DNA of 64,000 nt from Gemmatimonadales bacterium (GCA_040901965.1 JBBDYB010000005.1:31345-95344), one strand, 5' to 3'. Counted from the stretch's first letter, positions 9,255-59,981 are shown. Notes: generated from the letters alone by a model not told the origin. Numbers and translations are program-made.

Positions 9255-9345
9255 CGGAGAGGGGGGGATTCGAACCCCCGATAGGGTTTTAAAGCCCTAT
9301 AACGGTTTAGCAAACCGCCGCCTTCAGCCACTCGGCCACCTCTCC
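9255..9345 (-). tRNA. tRNA-Ser (anticodon GCU)
   Basis: The reverse complement folds as a cloverleaf. The acceptor stem is GGAGAGG/CCTCTCC. The anticodon loop is TTGCTAA. The long variable arm is ATAGGG..CCCTAT. The T-arm is GGGGGTTCGAATCCCCC. No CCA is encoded. Confidence 0.92.
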
Positions 9346-9690
9346 CTACGTTGCATCGCTTGCAGCGCCTGAACTTAGCGGAGCCACAGCAGCAGCGGTA
9401 CCCTCCGGTTTTGCCGTAGTTTGGCCGTTGAAGCGGCGCGCGACGGCATCGGCCAGGTCGGCGTCGTCGACGATGTTGTACCGGTCGAACATGGCCCGCG
9501 TCTTCCATCCGCACAGCGCCATGATCGTGCCCTCGTTTACACCGGCCGCGCGAAAGTCCCGCGCCGCGGTGCGCCGCAGGTCGTGCACGATGCGCCCTTC
9601 GCATCCTGCGCGCTTCGTGGCCCGCTGCCAGTGATGCAGCAGCGTCGTATACCCGAGGCGCTTGCCGCGCCGCGGACCCCTCTCATTCAA
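9346..9690 (-). pseudogene. tyrosine recombinase/integrase, C-terminal fragment only
   Basis: 'HDLRRTAARDF...GWKTRAMFDRYN' carries the HxxR and catalytic Tyr region. About 250 N-terminal residues of a normal integrase are absent. It abuts tRNA-Ser. Confidence 0.7.
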
Positions 9691-9903
9691 ACTGACCCAC
9701 TACCTCAAGGTGCGACATGACGTGTAGGGGCTCGCGCGCCCTCGGGCGTCTGACTATGCGGCGGGGGATAAGACGGCGTGCGAATCCTGTTCGGCGCTGA
9801 TCGGAGTGTGACGGCCACTTCGGCCCGCCAACCAAACCCCGGGGAGTTGTCGGCCCCGGGTTTTGGTCTTGACATTAACCGCTTCGCGGGATTACGTACG
9901 GGC

Positions 9904-9981
9904 ATGCAACGCGTCGCACGTCACCACCGGCATCATCATCGCCACCCGTTCGGGGGGCCGCCGGAGGTGTGCGCAAGCTAG
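9904..9981 (+). CDS. hisL: candidate his operon leader peptide (25 aa, MQRVARHHRHHHRHPFGGPPEVCAS)
   Basis: Six His codons fall within 8 consecutive codons (9922-9945). It lies between a TTGACA hexamer (9869-9874) and a terminator immediately upstream of hisG. Confidence 0.6.
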   Translation: MQRVARHHRHHHRHPFGGPPEVCAS

Positions 9982-10016
9982 TCTCTACCAGCACGAGACC
10001 TTGAGTCCATCGCCGA

Positions 10017-10045
10017 CGCCGGCCCCTAGGGCCGGCGTTTTTTTT
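10017..10045 (+). terminator. intrinsic terminator (candidate his attenuator)
   Basis: Stem CGCCGGCCC/GGGCCGGCG with a short loop, followed by T8 (10038-10045). It lies about 35 nt upstream of the hisG ATG. Confidence 0.8.
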
Positions 10046-10080
10046 GGTTGCGCACCACGACCACACCGGAGCAGCCCAAG

Positions 10081-10941
10081 ATGTGCCCACAACTCGACTC
10101 GACCCGCGTCTTGCGACTCGGCCTCCCGAAAGGCCGCATGGAAGCTGGCGTCCTCACTCTTCTCGCGGACGCCGGCATCCACGTGCGCCCGGGCGCACGC
10201 GGCTACCGCCCGGAGGTTTCGCTCCCTGAGACCGAAGCGAAGCTGCTCAAGCCGCAGAACGTCGTGGAGATGCTGGCCGCGGGGAGTCGCGACGTCGGAT
10301 TCGCAGGCGCGGACTGGGTTGCTGAGCTTGACTTCGCGGTGATCGAGTTGCTCGACACGGAGCTCGATCCGGTGCAGATCGTCGCGGCCGCGCCCGGCCC
10401 GCTCCCCGACCGGCGTATCGTCGTCGCATCGGAATACGAGCGCCTAACACGCGCTTGGATCGCGCGCCGCGGCCTCGCCGCCGACTTCGTTCGCTCTTAC
10501 GGCGCGACCGAGGTTTTTCCACCGGAAGACGCGGACGTCATCGTCGACAACACCGCCACGGGCGCGACCCTCGCGGCGAATGGCCTCCGCGTACTGGACG
10601 TCCTGATGCGCTCCTCGACCCGGCTGTACGCCAACCCGCGCGCGCTCGAATCCCCGGAGCGCCGTCGCCGGGTGGAGGATCTGGTCCTGCTGCTCCGCTC
10701 CGTGCTCGACGCGCGCCGGCGGGTGATGCTCGAGGTCAACGCGTCCGCCGATTGTCTGGACGCGGTCGTGGCGGCGCTGCCCGCGATGCGCCAGGCGACC
10801 GTGTCGCCGCTGTTCGGCAACGGGGGCTACGCGGTGAAAGCGGCGGTGCCGCGCGACCTCCTCCCCCTCGTGATTCCCGCGGTGAAGGCGGCGGGGGGGA
10901 CGGATGTCGTGGTCTCGCGTCTGGCCCAGATCGTACCATGA
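10081..10941 (+). CDS. hisG: ATP phosphoribosyltransferase (long form)
   Basis: 'LRLGLPKGRMEAG', 'LKPQNVVEMLAAGSRDVGFAGADWV'. ATG 10081 has GGAG 9 nt upstream. The track start at 10048 lies in the terminator tail. Confidence 0.88.
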   Translation: MCPQLDSTRVLRLGLPKGRMEAGVLTLLADAGIHVRPGARGYRPEVSLPETEAKLLKPQNVVEMLAAGSRDVGFAGADWVAELDFAVIELLDTELDPVQIVAAAPGPLPDRRIVVASEYERLTRAWIARRGLAADFVRSYGATEVFPPEDADVIVDNTATGATLAANGLRVLDVLMRSSTRLYANPRALESPERRRRVEDLVLLLRSVLDARRRVMLEVNASADCLDAVVAALPAMRQATVSPLFGNGGYAVKAAVPRDLLPLVIPAVKAAGGTDVVVSRLAQIVP

Positions 10942-12581
10942 ACACGCGCCTGGCATTGAAGCTGGACAGCAATGAGGGTCCGCTTCCCCCGCCCGCTCTG
11001 CTCGCGGCGTTGGCGTCCCTCGACCTGGAGGCGCTGCGCCGCTATCCCGACGTGTCGACGCTCGAGGCTACGCTCGCCTCCCGGGTCGGCGTCGCTCCCA
11101 ACCGCGTGATCGTCACCGCCGGCGCGGACGACGCGATCGACCGCGTGTGCCGGGCCTATCTCGGTGCCGGTCGCACGATGCTCCTCGCGGAGCCGACCTT
11201 CGAGATGTTCGATCACTTTGCAAAGCTCTCGGGAGCGGCCACGCTCGTGCGCGTCCCGTGGCCTTGCGGCGAGTTCCCTCTCGCGGCGTTTCTCGACCGG
11301 CTCGAGGAGCAACCGGCCGTGATCGCCGTCGTGTCGCCCAACAACCCCACCGGAGCCACAGCGACCGCCGCCGACGTCCGGCGCCTGGCCGAAGCCGCTC
11401 CCGGCGCCCTCGTGTTGCTCGACCATGTGTACGTCGAGTACGCGGACGAAGACGTCACGCCCGCCGTAATCGACCTTCCCAACGTCGTCGTCCTGCGCAC
11501 CCTCTCCAAAGCCTGGGGGCTCGCCGGATGCCGGATTGGCTACGCGATTGCGAGCCCCGACGTCATAGCGACCTTGCGGATCTCAGGCGCGCCCTACCCC
11601 GTCGCCGCTCCGTCGGTCGCAGTCGCGCTGCGGCAGCTCGCCGACGGCGACGAGGCGTTGCGCGTACACGTCGCGTGTGTGCGAGAGGAACGGAGCGCAT
11701 TGTGCGCTCGTCTGACGGCGTTGGGACTCGAGCCGCTTCCCTCTCAGTCAAACTTCATTCTGGCCGAATGCGGCGAGCTCGCACCGTTCCTCACCGCCGC
11801 CCTCGCGGCGCTCGGCGTCTTCGTGCGGGCGTTTCCAAACCGACCCGGCCTGACCAGCGCACTGCGCATCACTCTGCCGGGAAACGCTGCCGCCTTTGAG
11901 CGCCTTGTGGCGGCCTTCGAAACCGCCCTCGCCCCTGAAGCGCTTCTCTTCGACTTGGACGGTGTGCTCGCCGACGTACAGCACTCTCAGCGAGCCGCGA
12001 TCGCCGCAACGGCCGGCGCCTTCGGCGTAGCCGTCACGTCCACACAGGTCGCGGCGGCAATCCGGACCGGCGACGCGGCGAACGACTGGCTGGTCACCCG
12101 GCGATTGATCGAAGCTGGTGGATGCAGTGCCTCATTCGACGATGTGACGGAGCGGTATCAATCGCTGTATCTGAGTTTACGTGAGCAAGAACGCCTCATC
12201 CCGCCCAGCTCATTGTTGGATCGTCTCGCCGCCGGCCGACCGTTGGCGCTCGTCACCGGTAGGCCACGCGCCGAGGCACAGTGGTTCCTGGATCGCGCGG
12301 GCGTCGCGTCGCTCTTCGGCACCGTGGTCGCGATGGAGGATGCGCGTCCCAAGCCCGACCCGGCGCCCGTGCGGCTCGCACTCGAGCGCCTCGGCGTCCG
12401 CCGCGCTTGGATGATCGGCGATACGCCCGACGACGTCCGCGGCGCGGCGCAAGCGGGTGTGCTTCCCCTCGGCGTTGTCGCACCTGGCGACGACGCATCG
12501 TTGGCCGGCGCGGCACTGCGGGACGCCGGTGCCGCTCGCGTGCTCGACCGGCTTTCCGATCTCCTGGAGCTCTTGCCATGA
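10938..12581 (+). CDS. hisC: histidinol-phosphate aminotransferase fused to C-terminal HAD-superfamily phosphatase domain
   Basis: ATGA overlap with hisG. HisC motifs 'LDSNEGP', 'SPNNPTG', '[16 protein letters not shown]'. From ~11935, HAD motifs '[10 protein letters not shown]', 'LVTGR', 'KPDP', 'IGDTPDDV'. Confidence 0.85.
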
Positions 12582-13180
12582 ACCGCGCTGCCGCTGTGGA
12601 GCGAGTCACCCGCGAGACCGCGATCAAAGTCAACCTCATCATCGATGGGACGGGCCGGGCCGAGGTGAGCACAGGCATTGGGTTCCTCGACCATCTCTTC
12701 GAGACCCTGGCTCGGCACGCCGGGTTTGACCTCACCATCGCATGCAAGGGCGACCTGCGCGTGGACGATCACCATACCGCCGAGGACTGCGCGCTCCGGT
12801 TCGGCGAAGCGCTCGACCGTGCCCTCGGCGAGCGTCGCGGAATCATGCGATTCGGATCGGGATTTGCGCCGCTCGACGAGGCGCTGGCGCGCGCGGTGGT
12901 TGATCTCTCGGGTCGCCCGTACGCCGCAGTGGACCTGGGTCTCGGTCGCGAGGTCATCGGCGGGCTCGCGTGTGAGAATGTGGCGCACGTTTTCCGTTCG
13001 CTCGCCACGGCCGCACGGCTCACCCTGCACGTCGACGTACTGCGAGGGGAGAACGATCACCACCGCGCGGAAGCCGCGTTCAAGGCCCTGGCTCTGGCGC
13101 TGCGCCAGGCTGTGGCCTGCTCCGGTGGCGACGATGTCCCGTCCACGAAGGGCACGCTGGGCGCTCCTCGCGATGTCTGA
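12578..13180 (+). CDS. hisB: imidazoleglycerol-phosphate dehydratase (monofunctional)
   Basis: ATGA overlap with hisC. Motifs '[16 protein letters not shown]', '[10 protein letters not shown]', '[14 protein letters not shown]'. Confidence 0.92.
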
Positions 13181-14564
13181 GATCGTCGTCGTCGAGACCG
13201 GCGTCGCAAACGTCGCGTCGATCGCGAACGCGTTCCTCCGGCTCGGGGTGCGCGTCACGCTGACAAACGATCCAGTAGTCGTGGGCCGGGCATCGCGCTT
13301 AGTCCTGCCGGGCGTCGGCGCGTTTGGTGCGGCCGCAGCCGAGCTGCGCGCCCGGGGGGGAGGCCTCGACGACGCCTTGCGCGAACGCATCGCGGACGGC
13401 GCGCCGCTGCTCGCTGTGTGTCTGGGCATGCAACTGCTGTGCGACGGCAGCGAGGAGGCGCCGGGCGTGCCGGGGCTCGGGATCGTACCGGGCATCTGTC
13501 GGCGCCTACCGGCGGGTGTGCGAGTTCCGCACCTCGGCTGGAACCGGGTTGACGCGAATCCTGCCGCTCGCTTCGTCACCACGGCTGAGGCGGCTTTTGC
13601 CAACTCCTACGCTCTGCGTGAAGCGCCGCCCGGGTGGACTGCATCGTGGACGAAGCACGGGGCGCCATTTGTGGCTGCGTTGGAGCGGGGCAACACGCTC
13701 GCCTGCCAGTTCCACCCAGAGTTGTCGGGAGCGTACGGAGAAGCTGTGCTGGCGCGGTGGCTGGGCCTGGGAAACGGTGTGGCGCGCACCGAACCGCCGG
13801 CGCGCGCGGCCGGTCTGCTGCGCCGGATCGTCCCCTGCCTCGATGTTCGCGACGGGCGGGTGGTGAAGGGCGTGAATTTCCAGGGGCTCCGCGACGTCGG
13901 CGATCCGGCTGAGCACGCGGCGCGCTACGAGGCGCAAGGCGCGGACGAAATCGTCATGCTCGATATCGCGGCCGCACCAGCGGGGCGAGACACACAGGTG
14001 GAGACCGTGCGGCGAGTACGGGAAGCCATTCGGATTCCGCTCACGGTCGGTGGGGGGGTCCGTAGCGTCGCCGACGCGCGGCGCCTGCTTGGCGCCGGCG
14101 CCGACAAAGTGAGCGTCAACACCGCTTCGGTCCGGCGTCCGCACCTCCTCAGTGAGCTGGCCGACGCATTCGGCCGGCAGTGCGTCGTCCTCGCGATCGA
14201 TGCGAGACGCCGCGACCAGGAATGGGAGGCACTCGTCGTGGGCGGTCGGTCCGCCGGCGGACGCGACGCAGTCGGTTGGGCATCCGAAGGCGAGGAACGT
14301 GGAGCCGGAGAAATTCTGCTCACGAGCTGGGACGCGGACGGAACCCGCAAGGGGCACGATCTCGGATTGCTGCGCGCCGTCGTCAGCGCCGTCCACGTGC
14401 CCGTGATCGCGTCTGGAGGGATCGGAACGCGGACCCACGTCGTCGAGGCGTTCGAAGCCGGTGCGGACGCCGTGCTGGCGGCGTCGGTGCTGCACGACGG
14501 CGTCGAGACGGTGGAGGGTATCAAATCGTACGCCGCCGCGTGCGGCATCGCGGTGCGGACGTGA
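13173..14564 (+). CDS. hisHF: imidazole glycerol phosphate synthase, fused HisH (glutaminase) and HisF (cyclase) domains
   Basis: HisH motifs 'LPGVGAFG', 'GVCLGMQLL', 'ACQFHPE'. Then in the same frame HisF motifs '[16 protein letters not shown]', 'DEIVMLDI', 'GGGVRS', 'ASGGIG'. There is no stop between them. Confidence 0.9.
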
Positions 14565-15823
14565 TAATCCCGAGCATCGATATCATGAACGGACGAGCCG
14601 TCCAGCTGCGGCATGGACGGGAGCTCGTGCTCGATGGCGGAGACCCGCTGGAGCGGCTCGAGCAATTCGCCGTCGTGGGTGAAGTGGCGGTCGTGGATCT
14701 CGACGCCGCTCTCGGGCAAGGGTCCAACACGGCTCTGATCCAAACGATGGTACGGCGCGCGCCGTGCCGCGTCGGTGGCGGTATCCGCTCGTCGGACGCG
14801 GCCCGCGCGTGGCTGGACGCGGGCGCGAAAAAGGTCGTGCTCGGGACCGCCGCCAGCCCCGAGCTGTGCGGGCGGTTGCCGCGCGAACGCGTGATCGCGG
14901 CGGTGGACGCCGAGCGTGGTGACGTCGTGGTAGACGGGTGGCGAGCCAAGACCGGCGCCCACGTGCCTGAACGCATCGCCGTGCTAGCACCGTACGTGGG
15001 CGGGTTTCTGTTCACCCAGGTCGAGTACGAAGGAGCGATGGGTGGATTCGACTTGGATGCAGTTCGCAGCGCAATCGCGGCGGCCGGCGGAGCGCGCATC
15101 ACGGCTGCAGGCGGGATCATCACCGTAGATCATGTGGCGGCGCTCGACGCGCTCGGTGCGGATGCGCAGGTCGGCATGGCTCTGTACACGGAGCGCCTGC
15201 CTCTGGGCGAAGCGCTCTCGGCTTCGCTGGCCAAGCCGCTGGACGGCGGCGTATGGCCAACGGTGGTGTGCGACGAGCTCGGACGAACGTTGGGGCTCGT
15301 CTGGAGCACGCGAGAGTCGCTGGCCCGCGCAATCGGCGAGCGGCGGGGGATCTATTGGTCGCGATCGCGAAAGGTCGTCTGGGTGAAAGGCGAGACGTCA
15401 GGCAACACGCAGAAATTGGTGCGCGTCGAGCTCGACTGCGACCGCGACGCTCTGCGCTTCACGGTGCGTCAACAGGGTGATGGATTCTGCCATCTGCAAC
15501 GTCTTTCGTGCTGGCCGGACGGGTTCGACCTCGGCGTGCTGGAGCGCGTGATCCAGGCCCGCGCTAAAGGGGCGGGGGGGACCCCCGAATCGGGCACCGC
15601 CCGCCTGTTGGCCGACAGGACTCTGCTTGCCGCAAAGCTCAGCGAGGAGGCGGCCGAACTGGCCGCCGCGGAAACCGCGGCCGAGGCGGTCGGCGAAACG
15701 GCGGATCTATTCTATATGGGGCTGGTGGCGCTGGTGCGGTCCGGCGCGTCGCTCGCCGACGTACTGGCGGAGCTGGAGCGGCGACATGGCGCCGTGAGTC
15801 GCCGACCGATGGTCGCGAAATGA
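14561..15823 (+). CDS. hisA-hisIE: fused HisA (ProFAR isomerase), HisI (PR-AMP cyclohydrolase) and HisE (PR-ATP pyrophosphatase)
   Basis: GTGA overlap with hisHF. HisA motifs '[15 protein letters not shown]', 'VGGGIRS'. HisI motifs 'YWSRSRKVVWVKGETSGN', 'DCDRDAL'. The HisE-like helical C-terminus is 'EEAAELAAAE...ETADLFYMGLV'. Confidence 0.88.
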   Translation: MIIPSIDIMNGRAVQLRHGRELVLDGGDPLERLEQFAVVGEVAVVDLDAALGQGSNTALIQTMVRRAPCRVGGGIRSSDAARAWLDAGAKKVVLGTAASPELCGRLPRERVIAAVDAERGDVVVDGWRAKTGAHVPERIAVLAPYVGGFLFTQVEYEGAMGGFDLDAVRSAIAAAGGARITAAGGIITVDHVAALDALGADAQVGMALYTERLPLGEALSASLAKPLDGGVWPTVVCDELGRTLGLVWSTRESLARAIGERRGIYWSRSRKVVWVKGETSGNTQKLVRVELDCDRDALRFTVRQQGDGFCHLQRLSCWPDGFDLGVLERVIQARAKGAGGTPESGTARLLADRTLLAAKLSEEAAELAAAETAAEAVGETADLFYMGLVALVRSGASLADVLAELERRHGAVSRRPMVAK

Positions 15824-17115
15824 CGCCTCTGTTACCGCCTCGCACAGTCGATGAGATCACCCGGCCGCGTCCTACAGTGCCGACGGAAGCGCTGACAGCC
15901 GCTGCCCAAATCGTCGCAGCCGTGCGTCGAGGGGGCGAGCCCGCGGTGCGCGAGCAGGCGGAGCGGTTCGGTGAGCTTCAGCCGGGCGAGCCGATCGTGA
16001 TCCAGCGCCCGGCACTCGAGCAGGCTCTGCGCGGGCTGAATCAGGCGGATCGAGACCGGCTCGAACGGGTCGCGGGCCGCATCCGCACGTTCGCGGAAGC
16101 GCAGCGGCGCACCCTCAGTGAATTGACGGTCGCGATTCCCGGCGGGAAGGCGGGACACACCGTTGCCCCTGTCGAGCGCGTGGGATGCTACGCGCCGGGC
16201 GGGCGGTATTCCCTTCCATCATCTGTCCTGATGACCGCGGTGACCGCACGGGCCGCAGGGGTGCGCGAGGTGTGGGTTGCGAGCCCGAAGCCCACGCCGC
16301 TGGTGCTCGCGGCAGCCGCCGTCGCCGGTGCTGATGGCTTTCTGCGCGTAGGGGGGGCGCAAGCGATCGCGGCGCTCGCGTATGGGGCGGGTCCCGTTCC
16401 CCCCTGCGATGTGGTCGTAGGTCCCGGCAATCATTACGTCACCGCGGCCAAGCAGCTCGTCGCCGGCGCCGTTGGCATCGATCTCCTCGCGGGGCCATCC
16501 GAGCTTGTCGTCTTCGCCGACGCGAGCGCCGATCCCTCCCTCGTCGCTGCCGATCTCCTCGCGCAAGCCGAGCACGACCCCTGCGCGCTTCCTGTACTCG
16601 TGTCGGTCGGTACGTCGCTTGCAGCGCAGGTCGAGATCGAGATCCGCCGACAGCTGTCCGACCTGCCAACGGCCGGCATCGCGCGGGCCGCACTCGCCCA
16701 TGGCGGCGTGATCACGGTGAATACAATCGACGACGGCATTGCGGCGTGCGATACGATCGCGCCAGAGCACCTGCAACTGCACCTCTCCGACGCGCAGGCC
16801 GTCGCCTCTCGGCTCGAGCATTACGGGGCGCTGTTCATCGGAGCGGAGGCGGGCGAGGTGTTGGGCGACTATGGCGCCGGGCCCAACCACGTACTGCCAA
16901 CGAGCGGCACGGCGCGGTGGACTGGTGGCTTGTCAGTGCTGACGTTCTTACGCGTGCGTACGTGGTTGCGGATAGCTGACCCCTCGGCAGCCCGTGAGCT
17001 GACGGAGGACGCCGCCTGGTTTGGTCGCGCGGAAGGGCTCGAAGGACATCGTAGATCTGCTCAACGGCGCCTCCCGGAATTCCCCTCCAAGCCCGAACAG
17101 TTGATTACCCGGTAA
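15820..17115 (+). CDS. hisD: histidinol dehydrogenase
   Basis: ATGA overlap with the upstream gene. Motifs 'GPSELVVFAD', 'LLAQAEHD', 'APEHLQL', 'GDYGAGPNHVLPT'. Confidence 0.93.
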   Translation: MTPLLPPRTVDEITRPRPTVPTEALTAAAQIVAAVRRGGEPAVREQAERFGELQPGEPIVIQRPALEQALRGLNQADRDRLERVAGRIRTFAEAQRRTLSELTVAIPGGKAGHTVAPVERVGCYAPGGRYSLPSSVLMTAVTARAAGVREVWVASPKPTPLVLAAAAVAGADGFLRVGGAQAIAALAYGAGPVPPCDVVVGPGNHYVTAAKQLVAGAVGIDLLAGPSELVVFADASADPSLVAADLLAQAEHDPCALPVLVSVGTSLAAQVEIEIRRQLSDLPTAGIARAALAHGGVITVNTIDDGIAACDTIAPEHLQLHLSDAQAVASRLEHYGALFIGAEAGEVLGDYGAGPNHVLPTSGTARWTGGLSVLTFLRVRTWLRIADPSAARELTEDAAWFGRAEGLEGHRRSAQRRLPEFPSKPEQLITR

Positions 17116-59434: not shown

Positions 59435-59981
59435 GCGGCTGGCGCGGCGCGCCGGCTTTTGGTGGGGCCTTGCCGAAGGCTTTCTCTTCTTTATCGTGCC
59501 CGACGTCTACGTCAGCTTTGCCGCGCTGTTTTCGTTGCGGGCGGGGCTCGTCGCCTGGGTCGCATCCATCGCCGGCTCCCTGGCCGGCGTCCTTGTCATT
59601 TACCTGCTTGTGGTCGTGCTCGGGTTCGACTACGTGCGGTTCCTCGATGCGATTCCCGGGATTCCGCCGCGGATGCTCTTCGACGTGGGCGCCGAGCTGG
59701 GAGCACAGGGGCTGCCGTACATGCCGCTGCTGATTCTGGGAGGCGTGCCGCTCAAGGTGTACGCCGGGATCGCGTTCTTCTTGGGGACGGGCTTGGTGCC
59801 CGTGTTGCTCTGGACGGTGTTCGCGCGGATCGTGCGGATGGCGCCGGTGTTCGCGGTGGCCGCGGCGGCGCGCCTCCTGTTCCGGCGCTCGATTGACGGG
59901 CGGCCCGTGCTCTGGTGCACCGTCCTCGGCGCCATTTGGTTCGGCTTCTATGTGTTCTACTTCGTGCGCATGAGCCGCTAG
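59397..59981 (+). CDS. hypothetical polytopic membrane protein
   Basis: Four to five hydrophobic segments. It overlaps the previous gene by 38 nt, so the start is uncertain. Confidence 0.55.
   Translation: MNAERIQQLARDERLARRAGFWWGLAEGFLFFIVPDVYVSFAALFSLRAGLVAWVASIAGSLAGVLVIYLLVVVLGFDYVRFLDAIPGIPPRMLFDVGAELGAQGLPYMPLLILGGVPLKVYAGIAFFLGTGLVPVLLWTVFARIVRMAPVFAVAAAARLLFRRSIDGRPVLWCTVLGAIWFGFYVFYFVRMSR

What the first reader, a model, noticed from the sequence alone, without database searches (positions are those of the whole stretch)
9869..10080. His-codon-rich leader ORF plus terminator: candidate ribosome-mediated attenuator upstream of hisG
A 25-codon ORF (9904-9981) encodes MQRVARHHRHHHRHPFGGPPEVCAS. 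Six of eight consecutive codons (9922-9945: CAC CAC CGG CAT CAT CAT CGC CAC) are His.

About 35 nt after its stop there is a perfect GC hairpin CGCCGGCCC/GGGCCGGCG followed by T8 (10017-10045). About 35 nt after that comes hisG (GGAG, ATG 10081).

GGGGCCG at 9954-9960 is complementary to CGGCCCC in the 5' arm of the terminator, which makes it a possible antiterminator. A small hairpin GTCTC/GAGAC sits at 9981-9999.

A consensus TTGACA lies at 9869-9874, but I could not identify a convincing -10. The ATG may therefore be close to the transcript 5' end.

This is the architecture of the enterobacterial hisL attenuator. From memory, his leader-peptide attenuation is documented mainly in Proteobacteria, while other phyla use T-boxes. 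Finding it in front of this unusually fused operon deserves checking.
Basis: partly seen in the sequence, partly recalled or inferred. Interest (0 to 1): 0.65.

Follow-up and report, generated by a model that had tools for sequence, protein, structure and literature searches.

The report
Leaderless histidine leader-peptide attenuator of hisG
A tiny histidine-rich reading frame followed by a transcription stop signal sits in front of the histidine-synthesis operon of this Gemmatimonadales bacterium; it most likely acts as the classic "ribosome senses histidine" switch, here in a sequence family shared by at least five little-studied phyla and apparently translated from the very first base of the transcript.

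Summary
The interpretation, a ribosome-mediated his attenuator, is strongly supported by comparative evidence.

- **Host and operon:** the window is from a Gemmatimonadales genome. The operon is hisG, hisC-HAD, hisB, hisHF, hisA-IE, hisD.
- **His-rich ORF:** 67 of 80 related hisG loci carry a short ORF with at least 5 His in 8 codons. Only 6 of 3148 background segments do.
- **Terminator:** a conserved hairpin (core CGCCGGC…GCCGGCG) follows 24-41 nt after the stop codon.
- **Pairing:** the His-codon stretch pairs with the next segment (region 2), with real compensatory changes across phyla. Region 2 can alternatively pair with the terminator's 5' arm.
- **Codon signature:** variation in the His run is concentrated at third codon positions.
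- **Leaderless start:** a TTGACA -35 and a TAnnnT-like -10 place the ATG 6-10 nt after the -10 in 62 of 67 loci. No Shine-Dalgarno precedes it, so the leader ORF is probably leaderless.
- **Distribution:** a covariance model finds one copy per locus in 74 of 80 loci, labelled Gemmatimonadota, Acidobacteriota, Planctomycetota, Acidimicrobiia and Armatimonadota.
- **Databases and papers:** Rfam, Pfam and NCBIfam have no match. I found no paper describing it in these phyla.

It is a known mechanism in an undescribed family. Nothing has been tested experimentally.

The parts
9869..9874 (+). -35 hexamer TTGACA of the his leader promoter
   Evidence: Exact consensus. A TTGAC[A/G/C/T] hexamer at the same distance from the leader ATG was found in 67 of 72 related leaders. 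The ATG-anchored profile shows TTGAC at about -37 to -32.
9892..9897 (+). Probable -10 hexamer TTACGT (weak match; homologous to TTAGAT, TTACAT and TATATC in relatives)
   Evidence: It lies 17 nt after the -35. By homology with L001, L002 and L008 the ATG follows 6-7 nt later. An AT-rich patch lies at -13 to -8 in a roughly 65% GC background, with C at -1 in 75% of loci. Inferred; no TSS data.
9904..9981 (+). Leader ORF (25 codons plus TAG), MQRVARHHRHHHRHPFGGPPEVCAS; probably leaderless, with the A of ATG at or near +1
   Evidence: An in-frame ATG lies 6-10 nt after the -10 in 62 of 67 loci. An SD-like motif precedes the leader ATG in 1 of 72 loci, against 58 of 72 before hisG. The first His is about codon 7 in most loci.
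9922..9945 (+). Regulatory codons: 6 His (CAC/CAT) and 2 Arg codons; these are the sensor
   Evidence: Conserved in 67 of 80 loci. Entropy at codon position 3 is 0.60 bits, against 0.28 and 0.18 at positions 1 and 2.
9919..9947 (+). Region 1: the 5' strands of the anti-antiterminator helices (9919-9931 and 9941-9947), overlapping the His codons
   Evidence: RNAfold MFE, RNAalifold on 31 Gemmatimonadales, and covariation across 58 sequences.
9953..9977 (+). Region 2 (G-run, GCCGG, AGGUGUGCGC). It pairs either with region 1 (9953-9958 with 9941-9947; 9960-9973 with 9919-9931) or with region 3 (antiterminator)
   Evidence: The nucleotide sequence GGGGGnnAGCCGGAGGCG is conserved whether it is coding (long-peptide clade) or contains the stop codon (short-peptide clade).
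9981..9999 (+). Small hairpin GTCTC/GAGAC, enclosed by the antiterminator helix
   Evidence: It is poorly conserved in relatives, so its role is unknown.
10000..10027 (+). Region 3: the terminator 5' arm plus its upstream flank (…CCAUCGCCGACGCCGGCCCC). It pairs with region 2 when a ribosome occupies the His codons
   Evidence: Constrained folds. Duplex energy for 2:3 is -29.0 kcal/mol against -24.8 for 3:4.
10015..10045 (+). Intrinsic terminator: 11-bp stem (10015-10025 with 10029-10039), 3-nt loop, T8 (10038-10045)
   Evidence: -22.4 kcal/mol. A strict hairpin plus T tract occurs in 68 of 73 related leaders. 94% of cells are paired and 6 of 11 pairs show double changes.
10068..10071 (+). Shine-Dalgarno GGAG of hisG
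   Evidence: it lies 9 nt before the ATG at 10081.
10081..17115 (+). Regulated operon: hisG 10081-10941, hisC-HAD 10938-12581, hisB 12578-13180, hisHF 13173-14564, hisA-hisIE 14561-15823, hisD 15820-17115. Adjacent genes overlap at their stop and start codons
   Evidence: NCBIfam hits for every gene.

Best explanation
This is a ribosome-mediated (leader-peptide) transcription attenuator that sets his operon expression according to the supply of charged tRNA-His.

Transcription starts from the TTGACA/TTACGT promoter, probably at the A of ATG 9904, so a ribosome can load on the 5'-terminal AUG without a Shine-Dalgarno sequence.

- **His-tRNA plentiful, or leader not translated:** the ribosome clears the His codons. 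Region 1 (the His-codon stretch, 9919-9947) re-pairs with region 2 (9953-9973), or the ribosome itself covers region 2 near the stop codon. The terminator's 5' arm stays free, the 10015-10039 hairpin plus U8 forms, and RNA polymerase stops before hisG.
- **His-tRNA scarce:** the ribosome stalls within 9922-9945 and holds region 1. Region 2 then pairs with region 3 (10000-10027) as soon as region 3 is made. The terminator cannot form and the six his genes are transcribed.

Shown in silico: the ORF, the His run, the terminator, the 1:2 helix with covariation, and promoter spacing consistent with a leaderless start. Inferred: the 2:3 antiterminator, the transcription start, the timing, and the response to histidine.
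For: - **Conservation of the parts:** a His-rich short ORF occurs in 67 of 80 hisG-upstream regions against 6 of 3148 controls. A terminator occurs in 68 of 73. The covariance model gives one hit per locus, always just upstream of hisG, in 74 of 80 loci plus the window (103 bits).
- **Evidence that the ORF is translated:** the ATG is conserved about 6 codons before the first His. C/T variation is concentrated at third codon positions of the His codons.
- **RNA-level constraint:** the region-2 sequence is conserved whether it encodes amino acids or contains the stop codon.
- **The 1:2 helix and terminator:** 85% of cells are paired, against 35-54% when partners are slid. There are 84 doubly changed cells against 33 in shuffles (0 of 500 reach the observed value). 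For example, one pair is GC in 21, AU in 17 and GU in 9 sequences. RNAalifold predicts the same helices.
- **The switch:** the energy gained by pairing the terminator's 5' arm with upstream RNA has a median of -8.3 to -10.1 kcal/mol with a ribosome on the His run. It is -4.0 with no ribosome and -4.2 with a ribosome at the stop codon. In the window the 1:2, 2:3 and 3:4 duplexes are -25.6, -29.0 and -24.8 kcal/mol and share strands.
- **Leaderless start:** the -10 to ATG gap is 6-10 nt in 62 of 67 loci. SD-like motifs precede 1 of 72 leader ATGs against 58 of 72 hisG starts, and C at -1 precedes A at +1.
- **Context:** a complete his operon follows.
Against: - There are no experimental data: no transcription start, no 3' end, no response to histidine.
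- The window's own -10 (TTACGT) is a poor match, and the simple promoter scan found nothing.
- The antiterminator has no covariation support, because region 3 is nearly invariant. A fixed register pairs in only 69% of cells.
- Shuffle tests of the window's own 1:2 and 2:3 complementarity are marginal (p = 0.05 and 0.115).
- For the window, the computed advantage of the stalled state is small when the stall is at the second His (-6.9 against -7.3) and appears only for later stalls (-11.1).
- In the long-peptide clade, which includes the window, the stop codon lies about 15 nt past region 2. A terminating ribosome therefore does not cover the G-run, and termination under histidine sufficiency must rely on 1:2 re-pairing or on timing.
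- The related sequences are not independent samples, and the taxonomic labels are those of metagenome-assembled genomes.
Confidence: 0.85

Rival explanations
1. The same parts act by a different read-out. The His-codon stall controls hisG through Rho-dependent termination or through translation or mRNA stability, and the hairpin with its U tract is not the decisive terminator.
For: In many relatives the U tract is interrupted (…GGCGTCGTGCTTTT). Some carry an extra segment able to pair with the hisG SD. The known mycobacterial leaderless Cys sORFs act translationally (10.1101/834739).
Against: The window has a textbook intrinsic terminator: 11 bp (9 of them GC) and U8. The hairpin plus T-rich tail is the most conserved part of the element across phyla. 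The hisG SD in the window is not sequestered.
Confidence: 0.07
2. The ORF encodes a free-standing small His-rich peptide, for example a metal-binding one, with its own terminator. Its position before hisG is incidental or reflects co-expression only.
For: His-rich peptides bind metals. The ORF and its start codon are conserved.
Against: Only the His run and the first residues are conserved. The C-terminus differs by clade, and a single T/C change moves the stop by 8-10 codons while the RNA sequence stays the same. The element is always directly upstream of hisG. The His codons pair with downstream RNA with covariation. There is no Pfam or NCBIfam family.
Confidence: 0.03
3. An untranslated RNA switch, such as a riboswitch or a tRNA-sensing element, in which the CAC/CAU repeats serve only as pairing partners.
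For: There is strong RNA-level conservation and alternative helices.
Against: No T-box or riboswitch model matches even at E up to 10. The ATG is conserved in frame about 6 codons upstream with no intervening stop. Third-position periodicity is seen in the His codons. No ligand-pocket-like conserved multi-helix junction is present.
Confidence: 0.03
4. Chance co-occurrence of a His-rich ORF and a terminator.
For: The generic terminator scan is at chance level in this GC-rich DNA.
Against:: the same combination recurs at the same place in 74 of 80 related loci and essentially nowhere else in 0.92 Mb.
Confidence: 0.01

Closest known systems
Enterobacterial his operon leader, hisL (Rfam RF00514 His_leader; Johnston et al. 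1980 model, as cited in 10.1101/834739 and PMC9413887)
   Same: A short ORF with a run of His codons, alternative hairpins, an intrinsic terminator immediately before hisG, and the same logic: a stall at His codons leads to antitermination.
   Different: There is no sequence or structure similarity (no RF00514 hit at E up to 10; no Pfam or NCBIfam leader-peptide hit). The His run is interrupted by Arg codons whose CGG supplies the CCGG pairing core. The layout is a simpler three-helix one. The start is probably leaderless rather than SD-led. The hosts are Gemmatimonadota and other non-proteobacterial phyla.
Predicted His leader-peptide attenuators of Firmicutes (hisS/hisZ in bacilli, PMC2965389; his operons of the B. 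cereus group, Peptostreptococcaceae and Erysipelotrichales, PMC9413887)
   Same: They are independent, non-proteobacterial His-codon leader ORFs with terminator and antiterminator hairpins, found by comparative genomics only.
   Different: They belong to a different phylum and are low-GC sequences with no reported leaderless start. They are narrow lineages, whereas this family spans several phyla with a conserved terminator core.
Corynebacterium glutamicum ilvBNC attenuator (Morbach et al. [quoted passage not shown]
   Same: A leader peptide translated without an SD (leaderless) that drives terminator-based attenuation in a high-GC bacterium.
   Different: It senses branched-chain amino acids, is from Actinobacteria, and has an unrelated sequence.
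Mycobacterial polycysteine leaderless sORF attenuators (10.1101/834739)
   Same: A leaderless short ORF enriched in codons for the pathway's end product, with a stall that remodels downstream RNA.
   Different: Those act on translation by unmasking an SD, not through an intrinsic terminator, and they sense cysteine.
Histidine T-box leaders (Rfam RF00230), used by Lactobacillales and Corynebacterium for his genes (PMC9413887, PMC3896937)
   Same: They occupy the same regulatory position and sense the same signal, tRNA-His charging, with a terminator/antiterminator read-out.
   Different: They bind uncharged tRNA directly with no translation. No T-box match is found here.

Membership tests
Rfam RF00514 His_leader / enterobacterial hisL | Match to the family covariance model at or above its gathering score | tested here: not met
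   No RF00514 hit at gathering level or at E up to 10 in 9600-10300.
Rfam RF00514 His_leader / enterobacterial hisL | Leader peptide recognised by a curated His-leader protein model | tested here: not met
   No Pfam or NCBIfam family at E up to 10 for three leader peptides. Very short, low-complexity queries, so this is a weak test.
Rfam RF00514 His_leader / enterobacterial hisL | Shine-Dalgarno-led leader ORF inside a 5' UTR | tested here: not met
   The ATG lies 6 nt after the probable -10. An SD-like motif precedes the leader ATG in 1 of 72 relatives.
Ribosome-mediated (leader-peptide) transcription attenuators, as a class | Short ORF enriched in codons for the end product of the downstream operon | tested here: met
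   6 His in 8 codons before a complete his operon. Conserved in 67 of 80 loci against 0.2% of background segments.
Ribosome-mediated (leader-peptide) transcription attenuators, as a class | Intrinsic terminator between the leader ORF and the first structural gene | tested here: met
   11-bp stem plus U8 at 10015-10045. Present in 68 of 73 relatives, with 94% of cells paired.
Ribosome-mediated (leader-peptide) transcription attenuators, as a class | The regulatory codons lie in an RNA segment whose pairing (1:2) competes with an antiterminator (2:3), which in turn competes with the terminator (3:4) | tested here: inconclusive
   The 1:2 helix is supported by covariation. The 2:3 helix is predicted by constrained folding in all 68 loci and is energetically favoured by a stalled ribosome. 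It has no covariation, and a fixed register pairs in only 69% of cells.
Ribosome-mediated (leader-peptide) transcription attenuators, as a class | Read-through increases when the cognate tRNA is poorly charged, and depends on translation of the leader | not testable with these tools
   Needs reporter, Term-seq or in vitro coupled assays.
T-box riboswitch (RF00230) | Match to the T-box model (specifier loop, T-box sequence) | tested here: not met
   No hit.
Leaderless short-ORF attenuators (C. glutamicum ilvBNC type; mycobacterial LL-sORFs) | Transcript 5' end at, or within a few nt of, the start codon of the sensory ORF | not testable with these tools
   Only indirect support: -35 and -10 spacing, a 6-10 nt gap, C(-1)A(+1), and no SD. 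Needs 5'-end mapping.

The most novel reading that the evidence does not exclude
This is one instance of a single, previously undescribed cis-regulatory RNA family: a leaderless His leader-peptide attenuator with a conserved terminator core ACGCCGGCC…GGCCGGCGT. It travels with a long-form hisG and a characteristically fused his operon through Gemmatimonadota, Acidobacteriota, Planctomycetota (Phycisphaerae), Acidimicrobiia and Armatimonadota. If so, classical attenuation is not essentially a proteobacterial and Firmicute invention. Leaderless initiation would be an integral, selected part of the device, because the ribosome loads the moment the 5' AUG leaves RNA polymerase and this enforces transcription-translation coupling.
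Probability: 0.55. Interest if true: 0.6.

Novelty: new member of a known kind. Interest (0 to 1): 0.5.

Why it matters
Amino-acid attenuators are usually presented as a speciality of gamma-proteobacteria with few transfers (PMC3766115). For histidine the accepted picture is attenuators in Proteobacteria, T-boxes or HisR in Gram-positives, and a few predicted Firmicute attenuators (PMC9413887).

This element would give the first regulatory model for amino-acid biosynthesis in Gemmatimonadota, and a ready-made candidate RNA family (model R1) for genome annotation across several soil and marine phyla that lack genetics.

It also offers a natural test case for two questions. One is whether leaderless translation can drive terminator-based attenuation. 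The other is whether transcription-translation coupling, which attenuation requires, operates in these phyla.

The mechanism itself is textbook, so the value lies in distribution, annotation and evolution rather than in a new principle.

Tried and rejected
- **Rfam:** scans at E up to 10 around the site and at gathering level over the whole window returned only terminator-shaped chance hits and two tRNAs.
- **Protein models:** Pfam and NCBIfam gave nothing for the leader peptides (one search was a malformed request).
- **Promoter scan:** the simple scan found no promoter. The -10 was assigned only by homology.
- **Counting paired bases:** counting how many bases of the terminator's 5' arm are paired in constrained folds did not discriminate the states, because GC-rich RNA always finds a partner. 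I replaced it with an energy difference.
- **Region 2 shuffles:** dinucleotide shuffles had low power. They were mis-specified for the short-peptide clade, where my region boundary cut off the G-run. They were significant mainly in the non-Gemmatimonadales leaders.
- **Fixed-register antiterminator:** tested on the cross-phylum alignment, it showed no covariation. Registers differ between clades and region 3 is almost invariant.
- **Second pattern match:** a second match to the terminator-core pattern at 59570-59589 lies inside a coding region and scores 15 bits, so it is chance.
- **Longer ORF:** the 67-codon ORF from GTG 9778 was rejected as the leader because the conserved promoter lies inside it.
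- **SD-sequestering hairpin:** the hairpin seen in some relatives folds no better than shuffles and is absent here.
- **Literature:** searches for this element in Gemmatimonadetes, Acidobacteria or Planctomycetes found nothing. The library lacks many subscription papers, for example Vitreschak 2004 and Lopatovskaya 2010, so absence is not proof.

Full report
**1. What is in the sequence**

- The ORF runs from ATG 9904 to TAG 9981 and encodes MQRVARHHRHHHRHPFGGPPEVCAS.
- The stretch 9922-9945 reads CAC CAC CGG CAT CAT CAT CGC CAC.
- A hairpin forms at 10017-10025 with 10029-10037. It extends to 11 pairs over 10015-10039 (-22.4 kcal/mol) and is followed by T8 at 10038-10045.
- GGGGCCG lies at 9954-9960, the small hairpin at 9981-9999, and TTGACA at 9869-9874.
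- GGAG lies at 10068-10071, and the hisG ATG at 10081.

Downstream is a complete, tightly packed his operon:
- hisG, long form
- hisC fused to a HAD hydrolase
- hisB
- a hisH-hisF fusion
- a hisA-hisIE fusion
- hisD

The window has 67% GC. Record titles of the best HisG matches (92%, 89% and 77-80% identity) place it in the Gemmatimonadales.

**2. Is it more than chance?**

In the window, the segment holding this ORF is the only one of 266 (both strands, all frames) with at least 5 His in 8 codons.

I fetched 80 loci encoding relatives of this HisG from one-genome-per-species contigs. A stop-free stretch with at least 5 His in 8 codons lies within 450 nt upstream of hisG in 67 of 80 loci. Only 6 of 3148 other 480-nt segments of the same loci meet that criterion. 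For at least 6 His the counts are 49 of 80 against 0 of 3148.

A strict hairpin with a T-rich tail follows in 68 of 73 leaders. It starts 24-41 nt after the leader stop codon, most often about 31 nt. Its core, CGCCGGC…GCCGGCG, occurs essentially once per locus, at that place.

A covariance model built from 58 leaders finds exactly one strong hit per locus (45-121 bits), always just upstream of hisG. It does so in 74 of 80 loci and in the window (9904-10045, 103 bits). This includes loci that were not in the training alignment, such as L005 (65 bits), whose leader MSTPFHRHGHSVLGG has only three His. One of these (L073) is cut off by a contig end.

Six loci have no hit. Their records are labelled Polyangiaceae, Myxococcales, Deltaproteobacteria and one 'Alphaproteobacteria'.

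**3. Evidence that the ORF is translated, and that the RNA is also under selection**

Three observations point to translation.
- The ATG is conserved. The first His is about the seventh codon in most loci.
- Within the His run of 31 Gemmatimonadales leaders, variation is concentrated at third codon positions (C/T). Mean entropy is 0.60 bits there, against 0.28 and 0.18 at positions 1 and 2.
- The peptide downstream of the His run is not conserved as protein. In one clade the frame ends at TAG inside GGGGGA**TAG**CCGGAGGCG. In the clade containing the window the same nucleotides read GGGGGG**CAG**CCGGAGGCG and the frame continues for 8-10 more codons.

The third point shows that what is conserved past the His run is the RNA, not the peptide.

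**4. Structures**

*Region 1 with region 2.* RNAfold and RNAalifold agree on a helix between the His-codon stretch and the next segment. The invariant CCGGC at 9927-9931, inside CAC-CGG-CAT, pairs with GCCGG at 9960-9964. This helix extends to 9919-9931 with 9960-9973. An inner helix pairs 9941-9947 with the G-run at 9953-9958.

On a MAFFT alignment of 58 leaders from several phyla, this structure plus the terminator is paired in 85% of cells. When partners are slid by 1-3 columns the figure is 35-54%. There are 84 doubly changed cells against 33 ± 7 in shuffles, with 0 of 500 shuffles as high. The informative changes are real compensations. Where relatives replace CAC-CGG by CAT-CAT in the His run, region 2 changes from GCCGG to TGATG. 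One column pair is GC in 21, AU in 17 and GU in 9 sequences; another is GC in 30, UG in 7, with a few CG, UA and AU.

This also explains the invariant Arg codon CGG inside the His run of Gemmatimonadales. It supplies the CCGG pairing core.

*Region 2 with region 3 (antiterminator).* If the nucleotides under a ribosome stalled in the His run are made unavailable, and the RNA is folded up to the terminator loop, region 2 (9953-9977) pairs with 10000-10027. That partner is the terminator's 5' arm and its upstream flank, and the helix encloses the small hairpin.

In the window the three duplexes share strands and have similar strength: 1:2 is -25.6, 2:3 is -29.0 and 3:4 is -24.8 kcal/mol.

Across 67 leaders I computed the energy gained by letting the terminator's 5' arm pair with upstream RNA.

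| State | Median energy gained (kcal/mol) |
|---|---|
| No ribosome | -4.0 |
| Ribosome at the stop codon | -4.2 |
| Ribosome stalled in the His run | -8.3 to -10.1 |

The stalled state is at least 3 kcal/mol better than the no-ribosome state in 42 of 67 leaders.

This helix has no covariation support. Region 3 is almost invariant, registers differ between clades, and a fixed register pairs in only 69% of cells. Shuffles of region 2 are significant mainly outside the Gemmatimonadales. For the window itself they are marginal (p = 0.05 for 1:2 and 0.115 for 2:3). I therefore treat the antiterminator as well-motivated inference, not as shown.

**5. Promoter and a probably leaderless start**

Relatives supply it. 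A TTGAC[N] hexamer is followed after 16-18 nt (19 in one locus) by a TAnnnT-like hexamer (TATATC, TAGATC, TTAGAT, TTACAT). The first in-frame start codon lies 6-10 nt after that hexamer in 62 of 67 loci.

In the window this is TTGACA (9869-9874), a 17-nt spacer, TTACGT (9892-9897), a 6-nt gap, then ATG.

Anchored on the ATG, the profile shows three features in a roughly 65% GC background:
- TTGAC at about -37 to -32
- an AT-rich patch at -13 to -8
- C at -1 in 75% of loci

A pyrimidine at -1 before a purine at +1 is the usual start-site preference (general knowledge).

SD-like motifs occur within 16 nt upstream of 1 of 72 leader ATGs. They occur before 58 of 72 hisG starts.

The simplest reading is that transcription begins at or within a few bases of the A of the ATG, so the leader peptide is translated from a leaderless mRNA. 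This is inference; there are no 5'-end data.

**6. Mechanism proposed**

With ample His-tRNA, or with no translation, region 1 pairs with region 2, or the ribosome covers region 2 near the stop codon. The terminator forms and transcription ends at about 10045.

With scarce His-tRNA the ribosome stalls at 9922-9945 and region 2 captures region 3. The terminator cannot form and the operon is transcribed.

One weak point applies to the window's clade. The stop codon lies about 15 nt past region 2, so a terminating ribosome does not cover the G-run. Efficient termination then depends on 1:2 re-pairing or on timing. In the short-peptide clade the stop codon sits inside region 2, as in the classical trp model.

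**7. Comparison with what is known**

The element works like the enterobacterial hisL attenuator but is not a member of that family. There is no RF00514 hit at E up to 10, and no T-box. There is no Pfam or NCBIfam leader-peptide match. It has no SD-led start.

The papers I could search describe the following:
- His attenuators in Proteobacteria.
- His T-boxes in Firmicutes and Actinobacteria.
- Predicted His leader peptides in a few Firmicute lineages (PMC9413887; PMC2965389).
- In Actinobacteria, a 2005 survey found no conserved RNA structure upstream of his genes (PMC1262725). A 2015 conference paper on His leader peptides there is cited in PMC4833913, but I could not read it.

Leaderless sensory ORFs have precedents. 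One is the C. glutamicum ilvBNC leader made without a ribosome binding site (Morbach 2000, cited in PMC4046766). Another is the mycobacterial polycysteine leaderless sORFs, which act translationally (10.1101/834739).

I found nothing on such elements in Gemmatimonadota, Acidobacteriota, Planctomycetota or Armatimonadota. The library omits many subscription papers, so this absence is not proof.

**8. Distribution**

By record titles and model hits, the family occurs in:
- Gemmatimonadales, Longimicrobiales and Gemmatimonadaceae
- Acidobacteriota, including Thermoanaerobaculia and Ca. Sulfomarinibacteraceae
- Phycisphaerae and other Planctomycetota
- Acidimicrobiia
- a Fimbriimonadia genome

These labels come from metagenome-assembled genomes.

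The HisA-HisIE, HisH-HisF and HisC-HAD fusions recur in 50, 42 and 40 of the 80 loci. The operon and its leader therefore look like a module shared by these lineages, whether by descent or by transfer. The 'unusual' fusions are lineage-typical.

**9. Verdict**

It is a classical mechanism in a new, apparently unannotated family with a probable leaderless start. Confidence in the attenuator reading is about 0.85, and in the leaderless start about 0.7. Interest is moderate: the value lies in annotation, distribution and evolution, not in a new principle.

Noticed in passing
window 9255-9345 (-) and 9346-9690 (-): tRNA-Ser(GCT) lies next to an ORF whose translation reads like the C-terminal end of a tyrosine recombinase (…HDLRRTAARDF…, read by eye; no NCBIfam hit). 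This may be an integrase remnant at a tRNA, just upstream of the his promoter. The closest relative, L001, has unrelated sequence upstream of its -35.
   Followed up: partly
window 9831-9867: A 13-bp hairpin (-22 kcal/mol) followed by TTTTGG ends one base before the -35 TTGACA. It looks like a (bidirectional) terminator insulating the his promoter. It is not better than shuffles.
   Followed up: partly
window 10938-12581, 13173-14564, 14561-15823: The his operon has three gene fusions: HisC-HAD hydrolase (TIGR01548-type, plausibly the missing histidinol-phosphate phosphatase, since HisB here is dehydratase only), HisH-HisF and HisA-HisIE. They recur as single HSPs in 40, 42 and 50 of 80 related loci across phyla.
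   Followed up: partly
L008 6253-6330, L013 6409-6480 and many other Gemmatimonadales loci: About 60 extra conserved nucleotides lie between the terminator and hisG. They contain ACUCCGG…ACGGAG, which can pair with the hisG Shine-Dalgarno and could be a second, translational layer. The fold is no better than shuffles, and the segment is absent from the window.
   Followed up: partly
window 9963-9969: Region 2 contains GGAGGUG, a strong Shine-Dalgarno consensus for this phylum (extended anti-SD reported for Gemmatimonadetes in PMC10783764), inside the leader ORF. It is probably a by-product of being complementary to CAC/CAU codons, but it could interact with the 16S rRNA 3' end of a translating ribosome.
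   Followed up: no
L005 1968-2078: This Gemmatimonadales relative keeps the promoter, region 2 and terminator, but its leader (MSTPFHRHGHSVLGG) has only three His codons. It may be a degenerating or less sensitive version.
   Followed up: partly
L049, L056, L058, L061, L066, L076: Six loci, labelled Myxococcota-type or 'Alphaproteobacteria', encode a similar HisG (64-68% identity) but lack the leader element entirely. How their his genes are regulated is open.
   Followed up: no
window 59570-59589: A second match to the terminator-core pattern (CGCCGGCTCCCTGGCCGGCG) lies inside what reads as a coding region and scores only 15 bits with the model. It is judged to be chance.
   Followed up: yes
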